From Actinomycetota bacterium (GTDB taxonomy: Bacteria; Actinomycetota; Acidimicrobiia; Spongiisociales; ZC4RG35), in the NCBI GenBank assembly GCA_046537785.1, contig JBKHKD010000007.1, forward strand, positions 10,832 to 74,831: a DNA stretch of 64,000 bases, written 5' to 3'. Made by a program: the position numbers and the translations under genes. Of the stretch, positions 40,256 through 51,174 are shown piece after piece. Position 1 is the stretch's first letter, and the number at the start of each line of letters is the position of its first letter. A model generated the notes under the pieces. It was not told the DNA's origin, made no database searches, and saw only the letters and a program-made list of their open reading frames with translations.

Positions 40256-40952
40256 CGTCGAGGGTGTCCATGCGGTGGCCGCGGCGCTGGCCGCCGGGCG
40301 TGTAGAGCGGCTCTACGTCGAAGAGGGCAGGCGGGAACGTATCGGCGAGCTTTTGAATGCAGCCGACGAGGACATGGTGAAGTTCGTTGAGGATGTCCGC
40401 TCGCTCGCCGACACGGACGCACCACAGGGTGTGGTCGCACGCTGTCGGCCTATTCAGCCGGTGACGCTGGACACCCTCTCATCTGAGGACGCCGCGGTTC
40501 TCGTGCTGGACCACATCGAGGATCCGCACAATGTCGGTGCTGCGGCGCGAAGCGCACGGGCGGCCGGGGTCGGTGGGATGATCGTTTCAGATCGGCGCGC
40601 CGCTCCTATGTCCGGGACGACGTTCAAGGCTGCGGCCGGAGCTCTGGAGACGCTGCCCGTGGCCATCGTCGGGTCCATCCCCGAGGCGCTGAGCCGGCTC
40701 AAGGACGATGGCGTCTGGGTTGTCGGCCTTGAGGCGGATGGTGATCAGAGTCTCTTCGATCTAGACCTGCTCACCGAGCCGGTGGCGGTGGTAGTCGGTG
40801 CGGAAGGCTCCGGTCTCGCCGAGTTGACCCGGAAGCGATGTGATGTGCTGGCTTCGATCCCGATGGCAACGAATACCGAGAGTCTCAACGCCTCAGTTTC
40901 CGCTGCGCTGGCGTGCTTTGAGATAATGAGGGTGCGCAGCAGGCCGCGTTAG
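40230..40952 (+). CDS. rlmB: 23S rRNA 2'-O-methyltransferase, SpoU/TrmH family (RlmB-like)
   Basis: It has SpoU motifs (HNVGAAARSA; ESLNASVSAAL). Its last 10 nt overlap the 5' end of tRNA-Thr. Confidence 0.85.
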   Translation: MAPAGYGDSVEGVHAVAAALAAGRVERLYVEEGRRERIGELLNAADEDMVKFVEDVRSLADTDAPQGVVARCRPIQPVTLDTLSSEDAAVLVLDHIEDPHNVGAAARSARAAGVGGMIVSDRRAAPMSGTTFKAAAGALETLPVAIVGSIPEALSRLKDDGVWVVGLEADGDQSLFDLDLLTEPVAVVVGAEGSGLAELTRKRCDVLASIPMATNTESLNASVSAALACFEIMRVRSRPR

Positions 40953-41018
40953 CTCAGTTGGTAGAGCAGCTGATTTGTAATCAGCAGGTCGTCGGTTCGA
41001 CTCCGGCACGCGGCTCCA
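40943..41018 (+). tRNA. tRNA-Thr (anticodon TGT), CCA encoded
   Basis: I folded it by hand: acceptor GCCGCGT/ACGCGGC, anticodon stem GCTGA/TCAGC with loop TTTGTAA, T arm GTCGG-TTCGACT-CCGGC, then T-CCA. Confidence 0.92.
40974..41016. repeat. attL core (43 bp, anticodon loop to 3' end of tRNA-Thr)
   Basis: It is identical base for base to 51132-51174 (TTTGTAATCAGCAGGTCGTCGGTTCGACTCCGGCACGCGGCTC). The flanking bases differ on both sides. Confidence 0.9.
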
Positions 41019-41119
41019 AGATAAGACAGAAACCCCGTTGTAACTGGTGGTTTCCGGTAATACCTCCTCGTGTCATTGACTCTGGTTAGACTGGCACTAC
41101 GCTAGCACAGCGGATAACA

Positions 41120-42010
41120 ATGGCAACTGATTCTCTCCCGATCCCCGACCTCCTCGACTCATTCGAACTTCACCTCCGCGCTAAAAACCGTGCTGAGAAG
41201 ACGATCAAATCGTATCGGGAGGCTGTGACACAACTCGCCGGCCACGTCGACGGCAAGCCCTCCGACCAGATAACCAACCAGGACGTCGAAAGCTATCTGG
41301 CCGCGGTCCTCGCCAAAAACGCCCCGGCGACGGCCCGCCAGAGGTACGCGTCACTCGTCCAGTTTTTCAAGTGGGCTCACGCCGAAGGCGAGATACCCGA
41401 CAACCCGATGGACCGCGTACAACCCCCACAACTCGCAGAGCAACCCGTCCCGGTGCTCACCCCCGCCGATCTAAGCGCCCTGATTCGGGCGGCGAAAGGT
41501 CAGGGGTTCGAGGAACGCCGAGACGAAGCCCTCATCCGAATGTTTGCTGATACCGGCGTCAGGCTGGGAGAAATGGCCGGTCTCCGCGTCGGTGACGTAG
41601 ACCTGAACCTCGCCGTCGCCGTCGTCAAGGGGAAGGGCTCGAGGTTTCGCACAGTCCCATACGGCGACAAGACCCGCGAAGCACTCGACCGCTACCGACG
41701 CCAACGGATGCGACACGAGTACGCCGACCTCGAAGCCTGGTGGCTCGGCCGCAAAGGTGCGCTCACCGACTCAGGGATAACGCAGATCCTCAGACGCCGC
41801 GCCAAAGACGCCGGACTCGACGGTCTACACGCCCACCAATTCCGCCACAGCTTCGCGCACCAGTGGCTCGCGCAGGGCGGCAACGAAGGCGACCTGCAAC
41901 GGATCGCCGGATGGTCAAGCCCGCAGATGCTGCAACGGTACGGCAAGTCGGCCGCGGACCAGAGGGCGCGGGAGAACTACCGCAATAATCCGTTATGGGG
42001 GGACCTGTGA
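41120..42010 (+). CDS. tyrosine recombinase / phage-type integrase
   Basis: It has a SAM-like N-terminal domain (LHLRAKNRAEKTIKSYREAV) and a catalytic domain with R (GVRLGE), HQFRHSF and LQRYGK (Tyr). Confidence 0.9.
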   Translation: MATDSLPIPDLLDSFELHLRAKNRAEKTIKSYREAVTQLAGHVDGKPSDQITNQDVESYLAAVLAKNAPATARQRYASLVQFFKWAHAEGEIPDNPMDRVQPPQLAEQPVPVLTPADLSALIRAAKGQGFEERRDEALIRMFADTGVRLGEMAGLRVGDVDLNLAVAVVKGKGSRFRTVPYGDKTREALDRYRRQRMRHEYADLEAWWLGRKGALTDSGITQILRRRAKDAGLDGLHAHQFRHSFAHQWLAQGGNEGDLQRIAGWSSPQMLQRYGKSAADQRARENYRNNPLWGDL

Positions 42011-42282
42011 CAACCTTTGTTGTCCGATGCAACGTCGACGGCCATCGCCAGGCCATCGGGACAATCGAACTCGGCCCGGACGGAATCGAACTGGTGCGCA
42101 AGGCCCCGATAGACGGAGTACAGACCGGCAATAAGCCACTCTGGCTGCACCGCCGGTCGCATCTCACGCACACAGAGCTATCTCAGGAGCCTGATTCCGT
42201 GGTTGAGTTCTACTGCCCGCGACACGGAATTGGTGAGAAGGCCTTTAGTGAAATCCAGCGAGCGATCCGAGAAGTCAGATAA
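42007..42282 (+). CDS. hypothetical protein
   Basis: The ORF has good GC3. The GTG at 42007 overlaps the integrase stop (GTGA); ATG 41995 is an alternative. I recognise no family. Confidence 0.45.
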   Translation: MTTFVVRCNVDGHRQAIGTIELGPDGIELVRKAPIDGVQTGNKPLWLHRRSHLTHTELSQEPDSVVEFYCPRHGIGEKAFSEIQRAIREVR

Positions 42283-42389
42283 CCAAGGTCCGCTGTGCTA
42301 TATTGAGAAGCACATAGGAATACGCCCCCAGGCCTAGCCGGAATAGGACCTCGCCCGTCGGGCACGGTGAGAGAACAGGAGTTCTCCAC

Positions 42390-42659
42390 ATGCCTAGGGG
42401 TATTTCCAACCTCACACCCGAAGAGCGGAGCCTCAGAGCCCGACTCGCAGCCCACACGCTGCATTCCAAGGTCGACCCGACCAAACACACCGAACCCGCC
42501 CGCGCGGCGTTCATGGATCGGTTTCTCGATGAAGTAGACCCGAACCGGGAGCTATCCGAAGCTGAACGCCACCGCCGAGCCGAACACGCCCGCAAAGCGT
42601 ACTTCTACCGGCTGTCGCTGAAATCTGCTCAAGCTCGCCGGAAGGCGGGTGTGGCATGA
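42390..42659 (+). CDS. hypothetical protein (basic helical, of a type recurring near actinobacterial integrases)
   Basis: An AGGAG SD lies 8 nt upstream. The protein reads ...PARAAFMDRFLDEVDP...ERHRRAEHARKAYFYRLSLKSAQARR. The family assignment is from memory only. Confidence 0.55.
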   Translation: MPRGISNLTPEERSLRARLAAHTLHSKVDPTKHTEPARAAFMDRFLDEVDPNRELSEAERHRRAEHARKAYFYRLSLKSAQARRKAGVA

Positions 42660-43075
42660 GCCGCTTCGACCAGAGAGAAAGCGGCCCCCGCCAAGAGGCC
42701 GCTTCCCAAACATCGGCTACCACACCGACCAACAAGGACAAGGATAACAGGCCAAGCCAATACGACCGAGTGCTTTCGGTCCTTCTGGAACACGGCGAAG
42801 TCTGCGGACACCACACGTTCTATGCGTCGATGATGATTCCCCGGTTCGGCGCGCACCTGAACCGCATGAAAAATCGGGGCATCCTCTGGTCTAAGCGGCC
42901 GTGTGACCGCCACAACCATGAGGGCACCGCGTACCTGTATCGGTTGGAGTCGGTCCCAGCGCCCGCGGAAGGCGAACCGTGCCCGGCTTGTGGCGGCCGG
43001 CTGGCCTGCGTGTCTGACTGTCGCGCCCGTTCTTTAGATATGGGCACTCTGCCTTTCGTGGAAGGGTCGGCGTGA
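42656..43075 (+). CDS. putative winged-helix DNA-binding protein with C-terminal CxxC
   Basis: It overlaps the previous gene by ATGA. The segment QYDRVLSVLLEHGEVCG...RFGAHLNRMKNRG looks wHTH-like, and CPACGG follows. Confidence 0.5.
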   Translation: MSRFDQRESGPRQEAASQTSATTPTNKDKDNRPSQYDRVLSVLLEHGEVCGHHTFYASMMIPRFGAHLNRMKNRGILWSKRPCDRHNHEGTAYLYRLESVPAPAEGEPCPACGGRLACVSDCRARSLDMGTLPFVEGSA

Positions 43076-43081
43076 CGGCTC

Positions 43082-43345
43082 ATGGCACTCTCACTAGTCC
43101 GCGCCATACCCGGCGCGCCCGAAGACGTCAGAGCCGCCGTAGAAGCCGCCCACGCGGCCCTACACGAGACCCGGTGTCAAGCCTGGCTGAGAGCCACCGG
43201 CCACCGGCCAGTCAGCCCGTATGCGGCGAACCGTCGAACCGCTGTCATGCTCGACGGGAAAGACAGTCCAGTCCCGGTCGCCAAGACCGCTGTCCCGGTC
43301 CGTGGGGAGTCCTGCGAATACCACCCGGTCGAGGAGTCGCCGTGA
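43082..43345 (+). CDS. hypothetical protein
   Basis: This frame has normal composition and GC3, unlike the Arg-rich overlapping frame of track ORF 43072. Confidence 0.45.
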   Translation: MALSLVRAIPGAPEDVRAAVEAAHAALHETRCQAWLRATGHRPVSPYAANRRTAVMLDGKDSPVPVAKTAVPVRGESCEYHPVEESP

Positions 43346-43947
43346 TTACCGGCGAAGCGTTCTGGACGGTCGCCCAAAGGGAATACGCCGCGGACCGATC
43401 CTGGCACGTCGAGCAAGCCGGTAAACCCTTCTTCTCGACGGTGTTCAATGAGACACTCGATGACTTCCTGGCCGACAACCCGGACAGACGCGGCGATGTA
43501 ATCGGCTATTACCTGCTCGCCTGGTACGAACTCTACGAGCCGCACGAACTCCCGAACGGCGACCCAACAATGGAGCGCGAGTTTTCAGAGGAATGCGACC
43601 GATTCGACGGCCACCTGCAAGCCCTCGCCAACGGCAAGCCAGCCAAGACCGAGAAGTCGGCTGGCGATAAGTGGGCGAGTCCTGGCCGTCTCGTCTGTAC
43701 CTGGCCCGACCTCGACCTAACCGCCCGCGCGGTCCTGTTCGTAATGGCCGCCCACGGACGCGACGACGGATCTAACTGTTTCGTCTCGCAGGCGACTATT
43801 GCCGAATACTTGGGGTTGTCTCAGGTCGAGACGGTGCGGCGAGCTTGGCGGCGACTCGAGAAGGCCGGGGCAATCAAGCAGACAGCGAAGGCGACTCAAC
43901 AGAAGCCGCCGACGTATCGGATCAACCGAGGACCGAGGGTCGTATGA
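43342..43947 (+). CDS. HTH-domain protein (replication-initiator or regulator-like)
   Basis: The GTG at 43342 overlaps the previous stop (GTGA). It has a C-terminal HTH (CFVSQATIAEYLGLSQVETVRRAWRRLEKAGAI). The iteron array starts 8 bp downstream. Confidence 0.55.
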   Translation: MITGEAFWTVAQREYAADRSWHVEQAGKPFFSTVFNETLDDFLADNPDRRGDVIGYYLLAWYELYEPHELPNGDPTMEREFSEECDRFDGHLQALANGKPAKTEKSAGDKWASPGRLVCTWPDLDLTARAVLFVMAAHGRDDGSNCFVSQATIAEYLGLSQVETVRRAWRRLEKAGAIKQTAKATQQKPPTYRINRGPRVV

Positions 43948-44201
43948 GCACCTATCCAGACCCCTACCACCGTAGGGGGGTACCAAGTCCAGACCCCTAC
44001 GACGACGCGCTCAGACCCCTACCGCCACGCGCTCAGACCCCTACCGCCGTAGGGACTAAGAGTCTTAAGAGACTCAAGAACGCTCCACCGCGCCGCCCTG
44101 AAGGGCGGGCGGCGTCGCTTCAAGAACGCGACCGTCTGATTCTGGACATCGTTGAGTGGGCTCAACTCGCCGCGGAAGGCATCGAGGGGTACCGCCGATG
44201 A
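43944..44201 (+). CDS. hypothetical Pro-rich ORF overlapping the iteron array
   Basis: The frame is open with an ATGA overlap, but its first ~100 nt are the repeats, so coding status is uncertain. Confidence 0.3.
   Translation: MSTYPDPYHRRGVPSPDPYDDALRPLPPRAQTPTAVGTKSLKRLKNAPPRRPEGRAASLQERDRLILDIVEWAQLAAEGIEGYRR
43955..44054. repeat. iteron array, 4 copies of CAGACCCCTAC
   Basis: The cores are at 43957, 43990, 44012 and 44034, giving spacings of 33, 22 and 22 bp. Copies 1 and 4 are embedded in CCCTAC..GTAGGG palindromes. Confidence 0.7.
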
Positions 44202-44428
44202 GAGAGTCAGCCTTCAACAAAGCCCGTCGATACCTCACCGAAGGCCGACTGTTAGTTGTCGCTGTCAATGAAAACCGCATCGACGCGTTATGCCGCGGAG
44301 ACGGCCGCATCTACTCGCTGGGACTCAACCCGGGAGGCGTCTGGTCTTGTGACTGTCCCGCGCGTACCGACCAATGCGCCCACCTACGAGCCCTCCGATT
44401 GGTCACGATTGAGGGAGGCCACCAGTGA
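44198..44428 (+). CDS. SWIM zinc-finger protein
   Basis: It has a CxCxnCxH pattern (WSCDCPARTDQCAHLRAL) and is 76 aa. Confidence 0.6.
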   Translation: MRESAFNKARRYLTEGRLLVVAVNENRIDALCRGDGRIYSLGLNPGGVWSCDCPARTDQCAHLRALRLVTIEGGHQ

Positions 44429-44700
44429 CCGAGAGATTGACATTCAGTTGCGCGGCATGTGGCTGGGAGTCCCGACCCCCCGCCGGCGTCGAAATGGTCT
44501 TCCACCCCTGCTCCGCCACCCGGACCCGCAGACAGCTCCGCCGGACCGCACACCGGGCCGTCGTCTCCCTCCAGGACCGCACCCTCGTAGACCGGGAGGA
44601 GATCCAGGAGGCTGACCGGGAACGCTGGCGGGAGGAGTCCCCCGTCGTCCAATCCCTCGAGACCGTGCTCGGGGAAGCCGCACTCAGGAGCGTCGACTAA
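44425..44700 (+). CDS. hypothetical protein (CxxC near N-terminus)
   Basis: It overlaps the previous gene by GTGA and has good GC3. Confidence 0.45.
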   Translation: MTERLTFSCAACGWESRPPAGVEMVFHPCSATRTRRQLRRTAHRAVVSLQDRTLVDREEIQEADRERWREESPVVQSLETVLGEAALRSVD

Positions 44701-44870
44701 TGGTGGCCTGGCGCGTCCAATACTTCCGTGAAGGCTCCCCCTACCCCGTCTCCCGATACCACCACGGCGACCAAGCCGAGAAGGAAGCGAAAGCCGAAGC
44801 CGCCGAACTCCGGGACCGCGGCGTCACCAACGTCGAAGTGAAGCGGATCGAGAAAGGATCGAAACCATGA
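44700..44870 (+). CDS. hypothetical small protein (56 aa)
   Basis: This ORF is not in the supplied track because it is under 60 aa. Its ATG overlaps the previous TAA. The translation is MVAWRVQYFREGSPYPVSRYHHGDQAEKEAKAEAAELRDRGVTNVEVKRIEKGSKP. Confidence 0.4.
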   Translation: MVAWRVQYFREGSPYPVSRYHHGDQAEKEAKAEAAELRDRGVTNVEVKRIEKGSKP

Positions 44871-44982
44871 ACCCGATTTTTTTAGAGGCGTTTAGGAGCG
44901 GCGAGTACACTCCTGGCGTCTCTCTCCCCTGCGTGCCGAGGCCCATTTTTGAGCGGCGCTCAAAGTCTGCGGGTGGCCGCTG

Positions 44983-45339
44983 ATGGCTGACTCACCGGGC
45001 GAGCGGCTCCGGGCGGCGATCCTTGAGACCTACACGCTCGACGCTGGCGAGATGGTCCTGCTCGATCAGGTGGTCGAAGTGTGTGACGCCCTGGAGCGGG
45101 TGAACCGGGACGTGGCCGCGTTGGACGTGCTGACCTCGACGGGTTCGGCCGGCCAGGAAGTCGAACATCCGTTGCTGAAAGCCCAGCGGGACTATTCGGC
45201 GTTGTTGGCGCGGATGGTCGAGGCGTTGCGTCTCCCGGCGCCGGGCGCGGCCGAGGACGAGGAGGGCGAGTCACAGATCACCCACTTGGCGCGGAAGGCC
45301 GCCCGCGCCCGTTGGGAGAAAGCGAGAACTGATGGCTAG
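44983..45339 (+). CDS. phage terminase small subunit-like protein (P27/actinophage TerS type)
   Basis: The pattern ...LDAGEMVLLDQVVEVCDALERV...TSTGSAGQEVEHPLLKAQRDYSALLARMVEALRLP...ARKAARARW matches my recollection of actinophage small terminases. I ran no search. Confidence 0.55.
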   Translation: MADSPGERLRAAILETYTLDAGEMVLLDQVVEVCDALERVNRDVAALDVLTSTGSAGQEVEHPLLKAQRDYSALLARMVEALRLPAPGAAEDEEGESQITHLARKAARARWEKARTDG

Positions 45340-45625
45340 ACGACAGAGACGCGACCGCGGGCCGTTCAAACTCCCGGCGAAGCTGGTCCCTGATCTTGAC
45401 GATTGGGGATCTGAGGCTGAGGAGGAGAAGCGGCGACTACGAAACGAGTGGCTTCGGGCGACCGACCAGGCAGACCGGTATTTCTTTGAGTGGCTGCCCG
45501 CGTACCTGGCCGAGCGGCGAAGGCTCGCGGGGAGACCAACACCGCCGCCGCCGAGACGCCGCGGGCCGCTCCCCGACCGCGTGAAGGCGTTGCTGGCCAG
45601 CATGGAGAGTGGGGAGGACGAGTGA
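45332..45625 (+). CDS. hypothetical protein
   Basis: It overlaps the TerS-like gene by 8 nt and is charged and Arg-rich with a Pro tract. Confidence 0.45.
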   Translation: MARRQRRDRGPFKLPAKLVPDLDDWGSEAEEEKRRLRNEWLRATDQADRYFFEWLPAYLAERRRLAGRPTPPPPRRRGPLPDRVKALLASMESGEDE

Positions 45626-45849
45626 GACGCCGCGCGTACCCGTTCACCGCGCCGGCGCGGGTGACCCCCGAGTCGGTGGTCGGTGTTGTCGTGACGGTCG
45701 ATCCGATATCGGTGGATATGCCGACGAGGGTTCGGGTGGAGCGCCAGCTGGCTGGTGCTCTCAAGGTTCTGGGAATGGAGATTGTCCCAGTTGAGAAAGC
45801 AAGCCGTCCCTGGTGGCGGCGCAAGACGAACCGAGGAGGTTCACAATGA
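45622..45849 (+). CDS. hypothetical protein
   Basis: The GTG at 45622 overlaps the previous stop (GTGA). It is the C-terminal part of track ORF 45490. Confidence 0.4.
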   Translation: MRRRAYPFTAPARVTPESVVGVVVTVDPISVDMPTRVRVERQLAGALKVLGMEIVPVEKASRPWWRRKTNRGGSQ

Positions 45850-46340
45850 GAAAAGAAGAAGTGTCGACAACTGAGACTGAAGTCTTGTCGATGTGTGACG
45901 GATGCCGGCTAATCCCGGTCAGTCATCTAGGGCTGGACATCACCGAGCCGGTGCGCGGGTTCGCGTACATGCTCGCCGCCAACGGCATCGAGGTTGTCGA
46001 GGACGACATCGGGCGCCCGTCGATTAGCCGGGATGACCTTGGCTGGCTTCTTGCGGAACGTCGGGAGCGTGAGGCACGCCGGGCCGCGGAAGCGGAAGAG
46101 CGCCGCGCCCAAGCCAAGCCCAATGTCGTCCTCGCCGGCGTCCCTGCCCAGGAAGGAGCGACCCCGTTCGAGGCGATGATGGCCGCGGAGAGCAACTACG
46201 TGACCCCCGACCGCGAGTTTGGTCGTCCTGGTGCCGGAACGGCGACGCAAGAGCTGCTGGAACAGCAATTCGCTGAGGGCCGGCGCCGGGACGCGGAGCG
46301 GAAGGCGAAGGCACGCAAGAAGAAGCAGGCCAAGTCGTGA
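45846..46340 (+). CDS. hypothetical protein with central charged helix and Lys-rich tail
   Basis: The ATG at 45846 overlaps the previous stop (ATGA). It contains an ERREREARRAAEAEERRAQ coiled-coil-like segment. Confidence 0.5.
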   Translation: MRKEEVSTTETEVLSMCDGCRLIPVSHLGLDITEPVRGFAYMLAANGIEVVEDDIGRPSISRDDLGWLLAERREREARRAAEAEERRAQAKPNVVLAGVPAQEGATPFEAMMAAESNYVTPDREFGRPGAGTATQELLEQQFAEGRRRDAERKAKARKKKQAKS

Positions 46341-46702
46341 GCCGGGTTACGTCGATTCCAGTTGTCGCTCTCGGCAAGGACTCTGATGGCCGGCCTACGC
46401 GGCTGTCGCTTCCAGGGACGGTCTCGAAGCCTGTCCCTATCAGGTCCGGCGGCCGGAAGATCGGCGAGGTTGCCCGCGACGGCTCGGTGTCATGGACTCC
46501 TGCCGGCAGCGCCGCGTCGTTCGAGGAAATGGTCGCCATTTCTGATGGTCTCGATCAGGCGAAATGGTCCCGGCGTCGGCTGCGTGCCGCCCTCTCCGGC
46601 GACAAGGTCGTGGCGGTTGTCGTACCAGCGAAGCGCCGTAAGACCGCGGTGGCGCCCCGGTTCGAGAAAGCCCCCGGCGGGTCTGTCCTCGACGTCCGGT
46701 AG
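46337..46702 (+). CDS. hypothetical protein
   Basis: It overlaps the previous gene by GTGA and has good GC3. Confidence 0.45.
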   Translation: MSRVTSIPVVALGKDSDGRPTRLSLPGTVSKPVPIRSGGRKIGEVARDGSVSWTPAGSAASFEEMVAISDGLDQAKWSRRRLRAALSGDKVVAVVVPAKRRKTAVAPRFEKAPGGSVLDVR

Positions 46703-46710
46703 ACAAGACA

Positions 46711-46965
46711 GTGAACGACGTCGCGCGTGTCCTCGAGCTACGGGATCGGCTCCCTAACGAGTGGGCCGGCCTGTTGACCCGGAGCGCGCAGGCCCTCGCC
46801 GCGGTCCAAGCCGAGACCGTCGACGAGGGCCGGTGCCGCGGCTGCGGGTCGGCTCTCCCGCCACAGGACCGCGGACGGCCGCGGAAGTGGTGCCAGGCCG
46901 CCCATTGCCAGCGAAAGTCGAAAAACGGCAGGAAAAAGGCGGGAAAAAGGACTATGGGGTCGTGA
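46711..46965 (+). CDS. hypothetical protein with C-terminal Cys-rich basic motif
   Basis: CRGCG...GRPRKWCQAAHCQRKSK resembles the GRPRxYCSxxCR tails seen in actinobacterial mobile-element proteins. This comparison is from memory. Confidence 0.45.
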   Translation: MNDVARVLELRDRLPNEWAGLLTRSAQALAAVQAETVDEGRCRGCGSALPPQDRGRPRKWCQAAHCQRKSKNGRKKAGKRTMGS

Positions 46966-47150
46966 TGGCTCCGATAGTCGACCAGAAAGCGTTAGAGGAC
47001 TTCATCGAGCACGCCGACCTCGATGAGGCTCGCCGGGCCGAGGCCGCGTTAGGGGCGATGGCCGCTTCGGTCCGGTTGAGAGTCGTCGAACTCGAAACCC
47101 GGCGCTCCAAGGAGTTGACCGTGTATCCCGCTGATCGAAAAGGAGACTAA
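46965..47150 (+). CDS. hypothetical small protein (61 aa)
   Basis: The ATG at 46965 overlaps the previous TGA. It is the C-terminal part of track ORF 46761. Confidence 0.4.
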   Translation: MAPIVDQKALEDFIEHADLDEARRAEAALGAMAASVRLRVVELETRRSKELTVYPADRKGD

Positions 47151-47153
47151 CCA

Positions 47154-49088
47154 ATGAGCATGCTTGCTCGACGACTTACAGTTCATAACCCTGCCGAAAA
47201 CGGGAACGGCGGGAACGGCGGAGAGACGACTGACGTGTTGACGTCCGATGCGGCGTGGACATGGTTCCACGACCCCCGCGCCACCTACCATTCGGGCACC
47301 CACAACCGAACCTATGTGACCTGGACTGCATCCGATGGGATCTGGGTCGGAGCCTACGACCATTCAACTAACGAGTGGTTCGACTTCCGGCTTACCGACG
47401 CCGACCAGGACGACCACCATGTCGCCGCGTTAGGCGTCCGCACCGACGGCCGAATCCTCGCCTGCTACTCCGAACACAACGGCGACCTGATGCAACGGAT
47501 CTCTGTCGACGCCGAGGACGTGTGGGACTGGCCGTTACCCGAAACACTCGACACGGCCCATTGCACCTACCCGAATCTGATCTATCTCTCATCAGAGAGC
47601 CGCTGGTATCTCTTCTACAGCACCGGAGAGGGTTCCACAGATAAATGGCGGTATCGCACTTCGGACGACGACGGCGACACCTGGTCCACAGACACGATTC
47701 TATGGGAACCCGGCAGTGGAAAGATCCCTTACATGAAGGTCGCCTCCGACGGTGTCGACCAGATCCACTTCGGAATGACCGACGACCACCCCGACGACGC
47801 CGACTCCAGCATCTACCACCTCCACTACGACGACGGAACCTGGCGCGACTCGGACGGCACCGACATCGGCTCCCCTTCCTTTGACACGACCGACGTGACT
47901 CAGGTGTACGACGGCGTGGCAGGAGATCCGGCGTGGATCTGGGATGTCGCCCCCGGCCCGGTGATGGTCTTCGCCACTCTGCCGTCGAGCACAGACCACC
48001 GTTACCAGTACGCCAAACTCAATGGCTCCTGGGATGTCAACGAAATCACAGGCGCCGGGAAACACATCTATGAAGGCACCAGCGAGCCGCAGTATTCCGC
48101 CGGGGTGGTGTTGGACCATGCGGACACAGACGTCGTTTATCTCGCCCGGGAAGTGGTGACAGATCGTTGGGAGTTGGAGAAGTGGACGACCAGCGACGGC
48201 GGCACGTCATGGTCGTCGACAGCTATCACGGAGAACTCCGACCCGGCTCCGGATAAGAACTTCCGGCCGATGGTGCCCCGCGGAGCCAGCCCGTTCGACG
48301 TGATCTGGTGCCGAGGCGAATACAACACTTACACCGACTTCGCCTCGGATCTGGCGGTCGAGCCTGCCGTCGTGGTCGACAACGCCGACCAGCCCACAGT
48401 TCCCACCTTGGACGTGACTTCCGGTCTTCTCCAGTGGGTCGACGCCAGCGAACTCACCGGCCTGGAGACTGGCGACGGAGTCGGAACTTGGGAGGACGAG
48501 TCGGGCAACGGCCACGACAAGACCGGCACCGCGGGCTCCTGGCCTATCTACACCGAATACATTTTCGGAACCCTGCCAGCAGTCCACTTCCGTCCGGGGG
48601 ACGTCATGGAGACAGCCGCCGGAGTGCCTGTCGCCGCAGCATCCGACTGGACCGAGTTCATCGTCCTCATCCCGACCGCATGGGAAGGCCTAAACCCTGG
48701 CTTGTGGCGGTCGGACTCTGACAGCAAAGGCGACACGTTCTTCATCTTTAATTCGAACACGGGGAGGCCGTGGGTCCGGTGGAACGGCACCGAGATCCTC
48801 CAACCATCCTCCGGATGGGCGGCGTCACTCGACGAGCGGATCGTCATCGCGTTGCAGGTCGAAGACGCCACATCGGTCGACTTCCGAGTCAACGGCACTC
48901 TCGAGCATTCGGACACTCACGCCGCTTCGAATCCGTCGATGTCGATCTACAACTGGTTCTGGCAGAACGACACCGGCCAGCGGGTGGAGGGCTATTACGC
49001 CGAACGGATCGCCTACGACCGCCTCCTCACCTCAACCGAAGTGGAGGACGTCGAGGACTATCTGATGGAGAAGTGGTCGGTCGCATAA
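47154..49088 (+). CDS. BNR_4-like beta-propeller protein with C-terminal LamG/concanavalin-like domain
   Basis: An AAAGGAG SD precedes the start. The N-terminal ~400 aa (WFHDPRA...DDHHVAALGVRTDGRILACYSEH...SDDDGDTWS...SSIYHLHYDDGTW) look like the sialidase-like BNR_4 family. The C-terminal ~200 aa are lectin/LamG-like. Confidence 0.65.
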   Translation: MSMLARRLTVHNPAENGNGGNGGETTDVLTSDAAWTWFHDPRATYHSGTHNRTYVTWTASDGIWVGAYDHSTNEWFDFRLTDADQDDHHVAALGVRTDGRILACYSEHNGDLMQRISVDAEDVWDWPLPETLDTAHCTYPNLIYLSSESRWYLFYSTGEGSTDKWRYRTSDDDGDTWSTDTILWEPGSGKIPYMKVASDGVDQIHFGMTDDHPDDADSSIYHLHYDDGTWRDSDGTDIGSPSFDTTDVTQVYDGVAGDPAWIWDVAPGPVMVFATLPSSTDHRYQYAKLNGSWDVNEITGAGKHIYEGTSEPQYSAGVVLDHADTDVVYLAREVVTDRWELEKWTTSDGGTSWSSTAITENSDPAPDKNFRPMVPRGASPFDVIWCRGEYNTYTDFASDLAVEPAVVVDNADQPTVPTLDVTSGLLQWVDASELTGLETGDGVGTWEDESGNGHDKTGTAGSWPIYTEYIFGTLPAVHFRPGDVMETAAGVPVAAASDWTEFIVLIPTAWEGLNPGLWRSDSDSKGDTFFIFNSNTGRPWVRWNGTEILQPSSGWAASLDERIVIALQVEDATSVDFRVNGTLEHSDTHAASNPSMSIYNWFWQNDTGQRVEGYYAERIAYDRLLTSTEVEDVEDYLMEKWSVA

Positions 49089-49755
49089 CCGCGAACAGGA
49101 CGGCGACGGCCAAACCATTGAACACCACCAGGCCCGCACGGTATTCGGGGACGAGCGTCCACACGCCGACAATGATCGCCGCGTGAAGGACCGCGCCGAA
49201 ATACAGGGCGAATCTGGGACGCCACCACAGAAGCGGCACCATTGCCAGTTCGGCGACGATCGTCCCCCAGACGATCAGACCTGTGGGGAGTGTGCCGAAC
49301 AACATAAGGGCGCCGTCCCGGTTCAATAACTCGCCAGATAGCCACCCTGGATGAAGTTTCGCGACTCCGGCGAACAAGTACAACGCAGTCATCTGAGTGC
49401 GTAGCAGAAGACGGCGTTGTGCCGTGTCGGGGAACCCGGCGACTAACACGGCGACGAGAAACAAGAACATCTCATGGTTGGTGTCGACGATCGGTGTGAG
49501 TACGACAGCGACGCCTGCAGCCCCCAACCTCGGCGCGACGAACCCGACAGCGGCCGATGCTAGGAGCGCTGCCGCGATCCAGACATTCGCAACGGTGAGT
49601 GCCTTGATGACCGCCGCAGCGAGCAGCGTCCAAACGATTACCCGGTGCTGTACATCATCCAACCGTAGGGCGTGACGTCGCCGGTCAACACGCGGTAGAA
49701 CAAAGCGGCCAGTGGCACTCCGAACTGGAGCACCAAGACCACTGATACCACCCAC
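49027..49755 (-). CDS. HTTM-like polytopic membrane protein
   Basis: It has multiple TM helices, and LYLFAGVAKLHPGWLSGE resembles the HTTM signature. Its 3' end overlaps the convergent 47154-49088 gene by 62 nt. Confidence 0.55.
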   Translation of the reverse strand: MGGISGLGAPVRSATGRFVLPRVDRRRHALRLDDVQHRVIVWTLLAAAVIKALTVANVWIAAALLASAAVGFVAPRLGAAGVAVVLTPIVDTNHEMFLFLVAVLVAGFPDTAQRRLLLRTQMTALYLFAGVAKLHPGWLSGELLNRDGALMLFGTLPTGLIVWGTIVAELAMVPLLWWRPRFALYFGAVLHAAIIVGVWTLVPEYRAGLVVFNGLAVAVLFAVMRPTTSPSDSPRRPPLRLR

Positions 49756-49887
49756 TGTGGACGCACTCCTTCCCGTTTCACGCCTTTCACCCTACCGCCC
49801 GACCCTGACCCGTCTATAGGGGATTAGCCCCATAAAGGAGGCTCGCCGTCTAAGCCACATTTCCCGGCCGAGCCTCACTCACCCTTG

Positions 49888-49925
49888 ACGAAAAGAACCC
49901 CCGCGGCACCACCCGCGGGGGTTCT
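49888..49925 (-). terminator. intrinsic terminator of the 3-gene minus-strand operon
   Basis: A 13-bp perfect stem (AGAACCCCCGCGG / CCGCGGGGGTTCT) with a 6-nt loop is followed on the minus strand by TTTCG. It lies 71 nt after the stop at 49996. Confidence 0.8.
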
Positions 49926-49995
49926 CGTGTTCCCGGCCCTTCCCGTCGAGCATCCGGGTAGAGAGCGAAAGGAGCCGGGCCGGGAAGATTGTGGG

Positions 49996-50433
49996 TTACA
50001 GGTGTTTCTCCCAGTAGGGGCGAAGCGTCTCGATGGCTTCATCGCACGCCCGGCCAACGACCCCGTCGGCAGGGGGTTCGTCTTGGAGGGCTCGCCACTC
50101 TGCCTCATACGCTGAGAGCACCTTCACTAGAAGCGAGTTCTTAGCCAACACCCGCGCCACGTCTTGGGCCATCTCCGTCGTCCCAAGGCCTGTGTCGGCG
50201 TATTCGACGACCAGGTCGACGATGCTCTCCACTCCTTTGATGCCAAGTTTCGTGGCCCCCGGCGCGGCATCCTCGATGGCCGTTCTGACCGCCCGACGCC
50301 GCGCCTTTTCCGCTTCATCGAACTTCTTGAACGCCGCCAAGAACGCTTCACTGTCACCCGCGTCCCGCGCAGCGTCTATTTCCTCGAGGCCCTTTTGGCG
50401 GGCTTCTTCGATCTTCTCCGTGGTGGTAGTCAT
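49996..50433 (-). CDS. hypothetical acidic helical protein (145 aa), operon gene 3
   Basis: A GAGGAGGAG SD precedes the start, which overlaps gene 2 by ATGA. I recognise no family. Confidence 0.6.
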   Translation of the reverse strand: MTTTTEKIEEARQKGLEEIDAARDAGDSEAFLAAFKKFDEAEKARRRAVRTAIEDAAPGATKLGIKGVESIVDLVVEYADTGLGTTEMAQDVARVLAKNSLLVKVLSAYEAEWRALQDEPPADGVVGRACDEAIETLRPYWEKHL

Positions 50434-50735
50434 TCTGTCTCCTCCTCTTTACAGGCAGCATTAGCCGCGGCCCGGACCATCGCCTTCGCGAATCCGGCCG
50501 CAATGTGCTGGCCGTCGCCCCGGCGCATCCGATCCGACCTGTTGGCCGAAAACGAGTCCATGATGCCGGCGACGATCCCGACGACGTAGACCCCGTCGTA
50601 TAGGTCGCTGTAGGTGTCCATGTGGGCTGCGTAGTCGTACAGCTCTGATCCGATGTCTTCGAGTCGGTTCTGGTCGCGGATCGCGTCCCAGTCGATGCTC
50701 TCGATCTCCTCGCGGATCTGTTCCTCAGTGGTCAT
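50430..50735 (-). CDS. hypothetical protein (101 aa), operon gene 2
   Basis: A GAAGGAG SD precedes the start, which overlaps gene 1 by ATGA. It has an acidic N-terminus and one hydrophobic stretch (GVYVVGIVAGIM). Confidence 0.6.
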   Translation of the reverse strand: MTTEEQIREEIESIDWDAIRDQNRLEDIGSELYDYAAHMDTYSDLYDGVYVVGIVAGIMDSFSANRSDRMRRGDGQHIAAGFAKAMVRAAANAACKEEETE

Positions 50736-51034
50736 TTCGTTTCTCCTTCTGTTGTTTCCGCCAGTCGGCGGTGGTCGTATGTGGCGTCGGCGTATACGTC
50801 GTGGTACTTCCCGGTGTCGCTGATGGCGATGTCGAGCGCTCCCCGGAGCAGGCGGTCGAGTTCTTCGACCATAAGACGAGCGAGGGACAGATCCGCCACC
50901 ACGGATGCCGGTATCTCGTCGTGCTTGTAGGCGAGCTGCATACGCGGCTCGAGGGCTTCTAGCTCAACCATGGCGATGGTGATAGACCGTCGTGCCCTCC
51001 GATAGTCGCCTCGATGGAACGGTGAGCGTGTCAT
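50732..51034 (-). CDS. hypothetical protein (100 aa), operon gene 1
   Basis: A GGGAGG SD lies 5 nt upstream of the ATG at 51034. I recognise no family. Confidence 0.6.
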   Translation of the reverse strand: MTRSPFHRGDYRRARRSITIAMVELEALEPRMQLAYKHDEIPASVVADLSLARLMVEELDRLLRGALDIAISDTGKYHDVYADATYDHRRLAETTEGETK

Positions 51035-51131
51035 GTACCTCCCTAGGTGGTGGACAGTGGATAACTTCCCCTGTCCGGTGGTTGCTGACCTGGGGTTTCA
51101 CCTATCTGGCACAGCGTTTACCCGGCCCTAC

Positions 51132-51174
51132 TTTGTAATCAGCAGGTCGTCGGTTCGACTCCGGCACGCGGCTC
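51132..51174. repeat. attR core (43-bp copy of the tRNA-Thr 3' part, no 5' tRNA half)
   Basis: It is identical to 40974-41016. Confidence 0.9.

What the first reader, a model, noticed from the sequence alone, without database searches (positions are those of the whole stretch)
49888..51131. Self-contained 3-gene operon of orphan proteins in the attR-proximal accessory slot
Seen in the sequence:
- Three minus-strand genes of 100, 101 and 145 aa lie at 51034->50732, 50735->50430 and 50433->49996.
- Each has a strong SD (GGGAGG, GAAGGAG, GAGGAGGAG).
- They are linked by ATGA overlaps.
- They have their own upstream region (51035-51131, abutting attR) and their own strong intrinsic terminator (13-bp stem at 49894-49925 followed by a T-run).
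- They are transcribed opposite to the rest of the island.
- All three are predicted helical and largely acidic. The middle one has one hydrophobic stretch. I recognise no domain in any of them.

Known biology: in prophages and PICIs, the att-proximal, oppositely oriented cassette is where morons, superinfection-exclusion functions and anti-phage immune systems are carried and expressed from the integrated state. Inference: this is a candidate novel defence, helper-interference or TA-like module. That reading rests only on position and operon design.
Basis: inference. Interest (0 to 1): 0.65.

Follow-up and report, generated by a model that had tools for sequence, protein, structure and literature searches.

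The report
Mosaic orphan gene cassette beside attR
Three real but uncharacterised small helical-protein genes sit as a self-terminated operon at the end of a tRNA-inserted mobile island; they are interchangeable phage-derived modules rather than a fixed three-gene system, and no known defence or toxin family fits them.

Summary
Three overlapping minus-strand genes, A (100 aa), B (101 aa) and C (145 aa), have strong ribosome-binding sites and a strong terminator. They lie just inside attR of a 10.2-kb integrase-bearing island in tRNA-Thr(TGT). All three are under purifying selection (dN/dS 0.1-0.4).

None matches Pfam, PHROGs, PADLOC, NCBIfam, PDB sequences, GenBank phages or plasmids.

The triad is not a conserved unit; it is a mosaic.
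- A is the commonest (38 clusters, Acidimicrobiia). In phage contigs it directly follows a CI-like XRE repressor gene.
- B is rare. It is coupled to C in two other lineages and to an unrelated gene X in two more.
- C belongs to a family of about 45 clusters and also occurs alone. Its confident six-helix model has no neighbour in the solved or viral libraries.
- Integrase-less remnants at tRNA-Thr and tRNA-Leu carry A with other partners.

B has no membrane-grade segment.

Best reading (about 0.35): an accessory cassette expressed from the integrated state, made of protein-binding modules that act in phage-island-host conflict. Roles in repressor control, counter-defence or addiction are not excluded. 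Function is unproven.

The parts
51132..51174 (.). attR core: a 43-bp exact copy of the 3' part of tRNA-Thr(TGT) (the other copy is at 40974-41016)
51035..51131 (-). Leader between the att core and the start of A. About 75 nt are conserved with elements that use the same tRNA-Thr att site. It is probably the att arm of the element and must also hold the cassette promoter, which was not identified.
   Evidence: - The alignments show about 85% identity to L004 (there in front of B) and conservation in L008.
- It is not conserved in L018, which uses a different tRNA.
- No sigma-70 consensus was found.
- The host gene beyond attR is divergent, so no read-in is possible.
50732..51034 (-). Gene A (100 aa): an alpha-hairpin protein, and the companion of the XRE repressor in Acidimicrobiia phages
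   Evidence: - 38 homologue clusters.
- Contexts.
- Model with helices 8-37 and 43-72, pLDDT 80.
- dN/dS 0.11-0.32.
50430..50735 (-). Gene B (101 aa): a rare soluble acidic helical protein, always translationally coupled to a downstream gene (C, X or another)
   Evidence: - 6 homologues, plus L018 and L016.
- Absent from IMG/VR and from GTDB genomes.
- dN/dS 0.21-0.39.
- No transmembrane segment.
49996..50433 (-). Gene C (145 aa): a six-helix protein with the conserved C-terminal motif DG-x-x-G-x-A-x-D-x-A-x-E-x-L-x-P-Y
   Evidence: - 45 representatives by exhaustive HMMER; alignment A5.
- Model with pLDDT 94.3 and pTM 0.85.
- No match in PDB or BFVD.
- No Pfam match in the family.
49886..49986 (-). 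3' untranslated region with two hairpins. The distal one (about 49926-49893, 14-bp G+C-rich stem, 6-nt loop, U-run) is an intrinsic terminator.
   Evidence: -64.7 kcal/mol, z = -4.0; sequence.

Best explanation
This is an autonomous accessory ('moron'-type) operon at the attR end of an integrative, phage-related island. It is assembled from interchangeable phage-derived gene modules rather than being one co-evolved system.

**What the parts are**
- A is the conserved partner gene of the CI-like XRE repressor of Acidimicrobiia temperate phages. It is predicted to be a long alpha-helical hairpin.
- B and C are a translationally coupled pair of soluble all-alpha proteins. The pair is otherwise found at the ends of phage-like elements.

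**How it most likely works (inferred)**
- None of the three has an enzymatic domain or a membrane segment.
- The most likely mode of action is therefore stoichiometric binding to other proteins: those of an incoming or resident (helper) phage, or of the host.
- The operon would be expressed while the island is integrated. Its role would be to bias phage-island-host conflict through superinfection exclusion or helper interference.

**Shown:** gene reality, operon anatomy, att-proximal position, modular shuffling, phage provenance, and the A-repressor linkage.

**Inferred:** expression in the integrated state, protein-binding action, and a conflict role.
For: - **Anatomy:** ribosome-binding sites, ATGA coupling, the terminator and the attR abutment.
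- **Real genes:** purifying selection on all three.
- **A and the repressor:** in four phage lineages (L006/L007, L013, L014, L015), A lies 18-22 nt downstream of an HTH_3/HTH_31 gene with weak RstR/DicA-like similarity. That gene is divergent from the early operon and lies next to lysis genes.
- **A is the conserved module:** A stays 48-93% identical while the repressors are only 19-36% identical.
- **B-C pair:** it recurs in L001/L002, where it converges on a phage-family gene, and in L016.
- **B-X:** it converges on a tape-measure gene in L003.
- **C alone:** it lies between a serine integrase and the capsid and tail-tube genes in L019.
- **Variable slot:** the same att arm carries different cassettes in the window, L004 and L008.
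- **Precedent:** lysogenically expressed defence genes sit near prophage ends in actinophages (PMC6426596).
Against: - There is no expression data: no RNA run holds the stretch and no promoter was recognised.
- PADLOC, Pfam, PHROGs and NCBIfam give no hit.
- Structure searches return only generic helical matches.
- Known defence systems usually contain an enzymatic or membrane effector, and none is present here.
- C also occurs alone between MarR and STAS genes, with no mobile-element genes within about 6 kb upstream and 9 kb downstream (L021/L022).
- In the L008-L011 remnants A has lost its ATG and carries an in-frame TGA. It is therefore not obviously kept for host benefit.
- The composition of the cassette does not differ from the rest of the island or genome.
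Confidence: 0.35

Rival explanations
1. A, and perhaps the whole operon, belongs to the element's own lysis-lysogeny or induction control. A would be a co-factor that binds the conserved C-terminal tail of the XRE repressor. In the island, which has no recognisable repressor, A would manipulate the helper phage's repressor, much as the satellite P4 derepresses P2.
For: - A is next to the repressor gene in every phage context seen.
- Three otherwise divergent XRE proteins (L006, L014, L015) share a C-terminal tail, WFxRPIDxxxxxATLxAA, next to the conserved A.
- The island has no XRE or other repressor domain among its small ORFs.
- About half of the A family ends in -LVA, -FVA or -LAA. These resemble ssrA-type degradation tags, which are common in switch regulators (the resemblance is from general knowledge).
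Against: - A occurs without any XRE gene in the window and in L018.
- A is not basic (pI 5.8) and has no DNA-binding fold.
- A very conserved A beside very divergent repressors equally fits a passenger gene riding next to the immunity module.
- No interaction has been tested.
Confidence: 0.25
2. The cassette holds counter-defence or host-takeover genes: small inhibitor proteins, like anti-CRISPR or anti-restriction proteins, that protect the element when it enters a new cell.
For: - The proteins are small, soluble, helical and acidic, with no enzymatic domain.
- They evolve fast and reshuffle as modules.
- They sit at a genome end and, in phages, next to an HTH regulator gene.
Against: - Acidity is the norm in this genome.
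- The XRE gene is divergent from the early operon, like a CI repressor, not like an Aca regulator placed behind acr genes.
- Purifying selection with up to 93% identity for A is unlike typical fast-evolving anti-defence genes.
- No known anti-defence family matches.
Confidence: 0.15
3. It is an addiction (toxin-antitoxin-like) module. A would be a toxic or growth-arresting protein, kept in check by the XRE tail in phages or by B in islands. Alternatively, B would be an antitoxin for exchangeable toxins C and X.
For: - In the seven lineages seen, an intact A always has an XRE gene upstream or B downstream. The only A with neither is disrupted.
- B is upstream of, and overlaps, variable partners, a mix-and-match pattern typical of TA pairs.
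- The cassettes persist in integrase-less remnants.
Against: - No toxin or antitoxin domain was found.
- B has no DNA-binding domain.
- C occurs alone in L019 and L021, so it is not a toxin that needs B.
- B is far rarer than the A class that appears to carry a coupled downstream gene.
- The sample of contexts is small.
Confidence: 0.1
4. The genes are functionless passengers: leftovers of recombination between phages that are decaying in this island.
For: - A is pseudogenised in L008-L011.
- B is frameshifted in L016 and carries an internal deletion in L018.
- The triad is unique to this window.
Against: - In this window all three are intact, with strong ribosome-binding sites, translational coupling and a terminator.
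- dN/dS is 0.1-0.4 across lineages.
Confidence: 0.1

Closest known systems
Lysogenically expressed prophage defence genes of actinophages (Cluster N mycobacteriophages; Sbash gp30/gp31; lambda RexAB)
   Same: [quoted passage not shown]
- They are transcribed independently of the lytic operons.
- They vary between related phages (PMC6426596).
   Different: - Sbash gp31 and RexB are four-pass membrane proteins, and gp30 and RexA carry DUF4747.
- A, B and C have no membrane segment and no such domain.
- No phenotype is known here.
Morons of temperate phages (general concept; from established knowledge)
   Same: - A self-contained unit with its own terminator.
- It is inserted between functional modules and is variably present among related elements.
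   Different: - No promoter was demonstrated.
- Composition does not deviate from the neighbouring genes.
- The host element is a 10-kb island without capsid, tail or lysis genes, not a full prophage.
Rip1, a single-protein prophage defence that forms a pore around small-terminase rings
   Same: - A small (about 94 aa) helical protein carried by a prophage.
- Foldseek aligns the A model to 9oox_A with TM 0.57/0.61 over 67 columns.
   Different: - The match has E = 2 and is one of many generic alpha-hairpin matches (MexA hairpin, TerS gp16).
- Rip1 lies between terS and terL (PMC13434031), whereas A lies behind a repressor gene or at att.
- There is no sequence similarity.
WXG100/Esx proteins and prophage-borne ESX-linked toxin cassettes of mycobacterial prophages
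   Same: - A helical-hairpin protein of about 100 aa in an actinobacterial prophage end cassette.
- Weak Foldseek hits to EsxB and EsxEF.
   Different: - No WXG turn and no YxxxD/E signal in the sequence.
- No Pfam WXG100 hit even at E <= 1.
- No polymorphic toxin gene nearby.
Type II toxin-antitoxin modules with XRE antitoxins
   Same: - In phages, an XRE protein with a variable HTH and a conserved C-terminal tail is followed by a small conserved protein.
- The genes overlap.
   Different: - The XRE gene sits at a CI/Cro-like divergent switch.
- A has no known toxin fold.
- A also occurs without the XRE gene.

Membership tests
Known anti-phage defence systems (PADLOC-DB v2 models) | At least one protein matches a model of a described defence system | tested here: not met
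   no family for A, B, C or the two neighbouring cargo genes, even at E <= 1.
Moron / autonomous accessory transcription unit | Own terminator downstream | tested here: met
   a 14-bp G+C-rich stem followed by a U-run, z = -4.0.
Moron / autonomous accessory transcription unit | Own promoter upstream | tested here: inconclusive
   - One search found no sigma-70 consensus.
- The flanking host gene is divergent, so a promoter must lie in or next to the 97-bp leader.
- No RNA data are available.
Moron / autonomous accessory transcription unit | Variable presence among otherwise related elements | tested here: met
   the same att arm precedes A-B-C (window), B (L004) or a broken A plus other genes (L008).
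Moron / autonomous accessory transcription unit | Deviant base composition | tested here: not met
   G+C is 0.617 and GC3 is 0.68-0.80, like the neighbouring genes.
Type II toxin-antitoxin pair | Recognisable toxin and/or antitoxin domain | tested here: not met
   no domain in A, B or C.
Type II toxin-antitoxin pair | The putative toxin never occurs without its antitoxin | tested here: not met
   - C is alone in L019 and in L021/L022.
- For A the rule holds in seven lineages, but the sample is small.
WXG100 / Esx | Helix-turn-helix hairpin of about 100 aa | tested here: met
   for A only.
WXG100 / Esx | W-x-G motif in the turn, and a match to the Pfam WXG100 profile | tested here: not met
   - The turn of A reads KHDEIPAS.
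- No Pfam hit at E <= 1.
RexAB / Sbash gp30-gp31 type exclusion | A polytopic membrane partner and a DUF4747 sensor | tested here: not met
   - no segment with a Kyte-Doolittle mean above 1.25.
- no DUF4747.
Rip1 | Significant structural or sequence similarity, and a position between terS and terL | tested here: not met
   - E = 2.0, a generic hairpin match.
- The contexts show a repressor-adjacent position instead.
Recombination directionality factor / excisionase | A small basic DNA-binding protein (winged helix or MerR-like) next to att or int | tested here: not met
   - A has pI 5.8 and an alpha-hairpin model.
- True DNA-binding proteins of this island are basic (integrase 9.4, HTH_36 protein 9.7).

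The most novel reading that the evidence does not exclude
A may be a partner-dependent effector of a new kind. It would be held inactive by the conserved C-terminal tail of the phage's XRE repressor, or, in repressor-less islands, by B. It would be released when the repressor is destroyed or displaced. That would couple the immunity switch of Acidimicrobiia phages to an abortive-infection, addiction or induction function. B would be an exchangeable adaptor that also pairs with C or X, and C represents a fold with no neighbour in the PDB or BFVD libraries.
Probability: 0.12. Interest if true: 0.65.

Novelty: new member of a known kind. Interest (0 to 1): 0.36.

Why it matters
- Acidimicrobiia and their phages are almost unstudied, and there is no genetic system for them.
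- This locus defines three uncharacterised protein families that ride in the lysogeny-linked and att-proximal slots of their mobile elements.
- A is the standard neighbour of the phage repressor. It would be a good marker for immunity regions in these uncultured phages.
- C gives a high-confidence model with no neighbour in the PDB or BFVD libraries.
- If any of the three proves to act in phage exclusion, repressor control or addiction, it would do so without an enzymatic or membrane domain. That is a less explored way for such systems to work.
- As it stands, this is a well-delimited candidate, not a demonstrated system.

Tried and rejected
**Profile and sequence searches with no significant match**
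- Pfam, PHROGs, PADLOC and NCBIfam on A, B and C.
- PDB sequence profiles for the three families.
- tblastn against GenBank phages and PLSDB plasmids: no match at E <= 1 and E <= 0.1 respectively.
- Rfam on the locus: nothing near threshold.

**Structure searches**
- Foldseek of the A model gives only generic alpha-hairpins, all with E > 0.4.
- Foldseek of the C model against PDB and BFVD gives nothing with a TM-score above 0.5 when normalised to the query.

**Collection scans**
- B in IMG/VR and in GTDB genomes: nothing.
- C subsets in IMG/VR and GTDB genomes: nothing.

**Readings rejected**
- A membrane protein for B: hydropathy is too low.
- DNA mimicry argued from acidity: the whole proteome is acidic.
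- WXG100: the motifs are absent.
- An excisionase role for A: it is not basic and has no DNA-binding fold.
- A back-joint in run X4 (51162 -> 40950, with 33 foreign letters, depth 2.3) was not accepted as a circular form. It lies in tRNA sequence shared with other organisms.

Full report
**1. Observation**

The sequence shows GGGAGG, GAAGGAG and GAGGAGGAG five to eight bases before the starts, and ATGA stop/start overlaps at both junctions.

ARAGORN finds tRNA-Thr(TGT) at 40943-41018. A perfect 43-bp direct repeat at 40974-41016 and 51132-51174 delimits a 10.2-kb island. The island carries:
- a tyrosine integrase (41120-42010);
- an HTH_36 replication-initiator-like gene;
- a BNR_4 protein;
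- an HTTM-like membrane protein.

The cassette's 97-bp leader therefore abuts attR.

The 3' end folds into two hairpins. The distal one has a 14-bp G+C-rich stem followed by UUUUCGU. The fold is -64.7 kcal/mol, and none of 200 shuffles folds as well.

The HTTM-like ORF (49027-49755) is also on the minus strand. 'Opposite to the rest of the island' is therefore only mostly true.

**2. Are they genes?**

Yes.
- Each has homologues elsewhere.
- Pairwise dN/dS against those homologues is 0.11-0.32 for A, 0.21-0.39 for B and 0.26-0.33 for C, with synonymous sites saturated.
- Codon-position G+C resembles that of neighbouring genes.

**3. What the proteins look like**

No Pfam, PHROGs, PADLOC or NCBIfam family matches any of them. 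PDB sequence profiles give nothing either.

- **A.** With a 38-sequence alignment, A models as a long alpha-hairpin (helices 8-37 and 43-72, pLDDT 80). Foldseek returns only generic hairpins, all with E > 0.4: the MexA hairpin, Rip1 and a small-terminase core.
- **C.** With 41 diverse relatives, C gives a very confident six-helix model (pLDDT 94.3, pTM 0.85). It has no neighbour in PDB or BFVD.
- **B.** B was not modelled. Its most hydrophobic 19-residue window scores only 1.25 on the Kyte-Doolittle scale, so it is not a membrane protein.

The median pI of 52 long ORFs in the window is 5.1. That fits the source, which is hypersaline-lake and microbial-mat metagenomes.

**4. Relatives and their contexts**

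*A is the most widespread.* It has 38 clusters at 90% identity; the only source name that gives an organism says Acidimicrobiia.

In phage contigs (L006/L007, L013, L014 and the IMG/VR contig L015), A lies 18-22 nt behind an HTH_3/HTH_31 gene of 107-113 aa. This pair is divergent from a small HTH gene and the early operon, and it is next to holin and amidase genes. That is the layout of an immunity region.

The repressors are only 19-36% identical to one another, while A is 48-93% identical. L014 and L015 have 93%-identical A proteins but 25%-identical repressors. Three repressors nevertheless share a C-terminal tail, WFxRPIDxxxxxATLxAA.

*B is rare.* Six relatives turned up among 5.8 billion proteins, one JGI metagenome locus, and none in IMG/VR or in 185,579 species genomes.

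*C looked like a pure orphan in the word-indexed search*. An exhaustive HMMER search then found 45 representative clusters.

The gene orders seen are listed below.

| Locus | Gene order and setting |
|---|---|
| Window | A-B-C |
| L018 | A-B-X, in a 2.3-kb integrase-less stretch bounded by a 46-nt repeat of tRNA-Leu(TAG) |
| L001/L002 | B-C |
| L016 | B-C, with B frameshifted there |
| L003 | B-X, converging on a tape-measure gene |
| L005 | B plus an unrelated 83-aa gene |
| L004 | B directly behind a leader about 85% identical to the one that precedes A in the window |
| L019 | C alone, between a serine integrase and the capsid and tail-tube genes |
| L021/L022 | C alone, between MarR and STAS genes on an Acidimicrobiia MAG contig |
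| L008-L011 | At the same chromosomal site as the window (rlmB/tRNA-Thr to DUF3263): a 1.65-kb att-bounded remnant with A plus a 144-aa possible remote C relative (hhalign probability 75%) and other small genes |

In L008-L011 the A gene has ATC in place of ATG and an in-frame TGA at about codon 19.

An HMM scan of all loci confirms this table. The A-B-C triad occurs only in the window. The recurring units are XRE-A, A-B, B-C and B-X.

**5. The leader**

The roughly 75 nt between the att core and the ribosome-binding site of A are conserved in the window, in L004 and in L008. They are not conserved in L018, which uses another tRNA. The conservation follows the att site, not the first gene. I therefore read this stretch as the att arm of this integrase type. 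The promoter of the cassette must lie within or beside it, because the host gene beyond attR is divergent. No promoter consensus was found, and no RNA run holds the stretch.

**6. Interpretation**

*Shown:* this is a real, compact, terminated operon in a variable att-proximal slot. It is made of phage-derived modules that recombine at gene boundaries.

*Best explanation (about 0.35):* it is an accessory cassette expressed from the integrated state, whose products act by binding other proteins in phage-island-host conflict. This rests on position and on precedent; in actinophages, lysogenically expressed defence genes lie near prophage ends (PMC6426596). It also rests on the lack of any enzymatic or membrane domain.

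*Rivals:*
- **Control of the repressor by A (0.25).** Supported by the strict XRE-A adjacency in phages, the shared repressor tail, and the absence of any repressor domain in the island.
- **Counter-defence (0.15).**
- **An addiction module (0.10).** In the seven lineages seen, an intact A always has an XRE gene upstream or B downstream, and the one A with neither is broken. However, C occurs alone, and no toxin domain exists.
- **Decaying passengers (0.10).**

**7. A further pattern in the A family**

The A family splits into two classes.
- 20 of 38 members end in -LVA, -FVA or -LAA directly after the conserved core. The phage-borne, XRE-linked copies belong to this class.
- The other 18 do not end this way. 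Most of them carry short tails rich in purine codons (GETK, GKET, GETT and similar) that look like the ribosome-binding site of an overlapping downstream gene, as in the window and in L018.

This suggests two standard configurations of A, but I could not fetch more contigs to test it.

**8. Verdict**

This is a new member of a known kind, namely att-proximal accessory cassettes of temperate elements. It is built from three uncharacterised families in a poorly studied phylum. Interest is moderate.

Noticed in passing
window 40987-51161 versus its flanks: In run X1 the two contigs that cover the island have word depth 27.5 and 28.8. The chromosomal contigs on either side have 40 and 36.8. The island is therefore probably absent from roughly a quarter to a third of this population. 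No empty-site contig was seen.
   Followed up: partly
L006:7647-7982, L014:7637-7978, L015:7650-7973: These CI-like XRE proteins have almost unrelated HTH parts (19-36% identity) but share a C-terminal tail, WFxRPIDxxxxxATLxAA. Like ssrA-type degradation tags, the tail ends in -AA. Many A homologues end in -LVA or -LAA.
   Followed up: partly
L008:7787-9476 and L018:3996-6353: These are integrase-less mini-islands bounded by tRNA-derived direct repeats: 1.65 kb at tRNA-Thr(TGT) and 2.3 kb at tRNA-Leu(TAG). Each holds an A-led cassette and, convergent on it, a gene for a secreted protein of about 117-140 aa with an HGSASF motif.
   Followed up: partly
window 51040-51131: The att-arm leader contains TTATCCAC, a near-consensus DnaA-box-like word. 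The whole stretch is about 85% identical in L004 and conserved in L008. Its significance is unknown.
   Followed up: no
L003:591-2426: A 611-aa tape-measure-like gene is the last gene before the convergent B-X pair, with no further tail genes on the contig. That is an odd end for a tail module.
   Followed up: no
L019 (whole 9.3-kb contig): This is a small phage-like element with capsid, tail tube, serine integrase, XRE, HTH_36 replication-like and WhiB genes. It shares with the window's island only the HTH_36 domain type (not compared by sequence) and a C-family gene.
   Followed up: no
window 49027-49755: The HTTM-like membrane ORF (Pfam HTTM, E = 4e-5, below the curated cut-off) is on the same strand as the cassette, directly after its terminator. 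Its 3' end overlaps the convergent BNR_4 gene by about 60 nt.
   Followed up: no
window 50283-50357 (inside gene C): Run X3 holds a variant contig with seven substitutions in 75 nt of C, so sequence variants of the cassette coexist in the same habitat.
   Followed up: no
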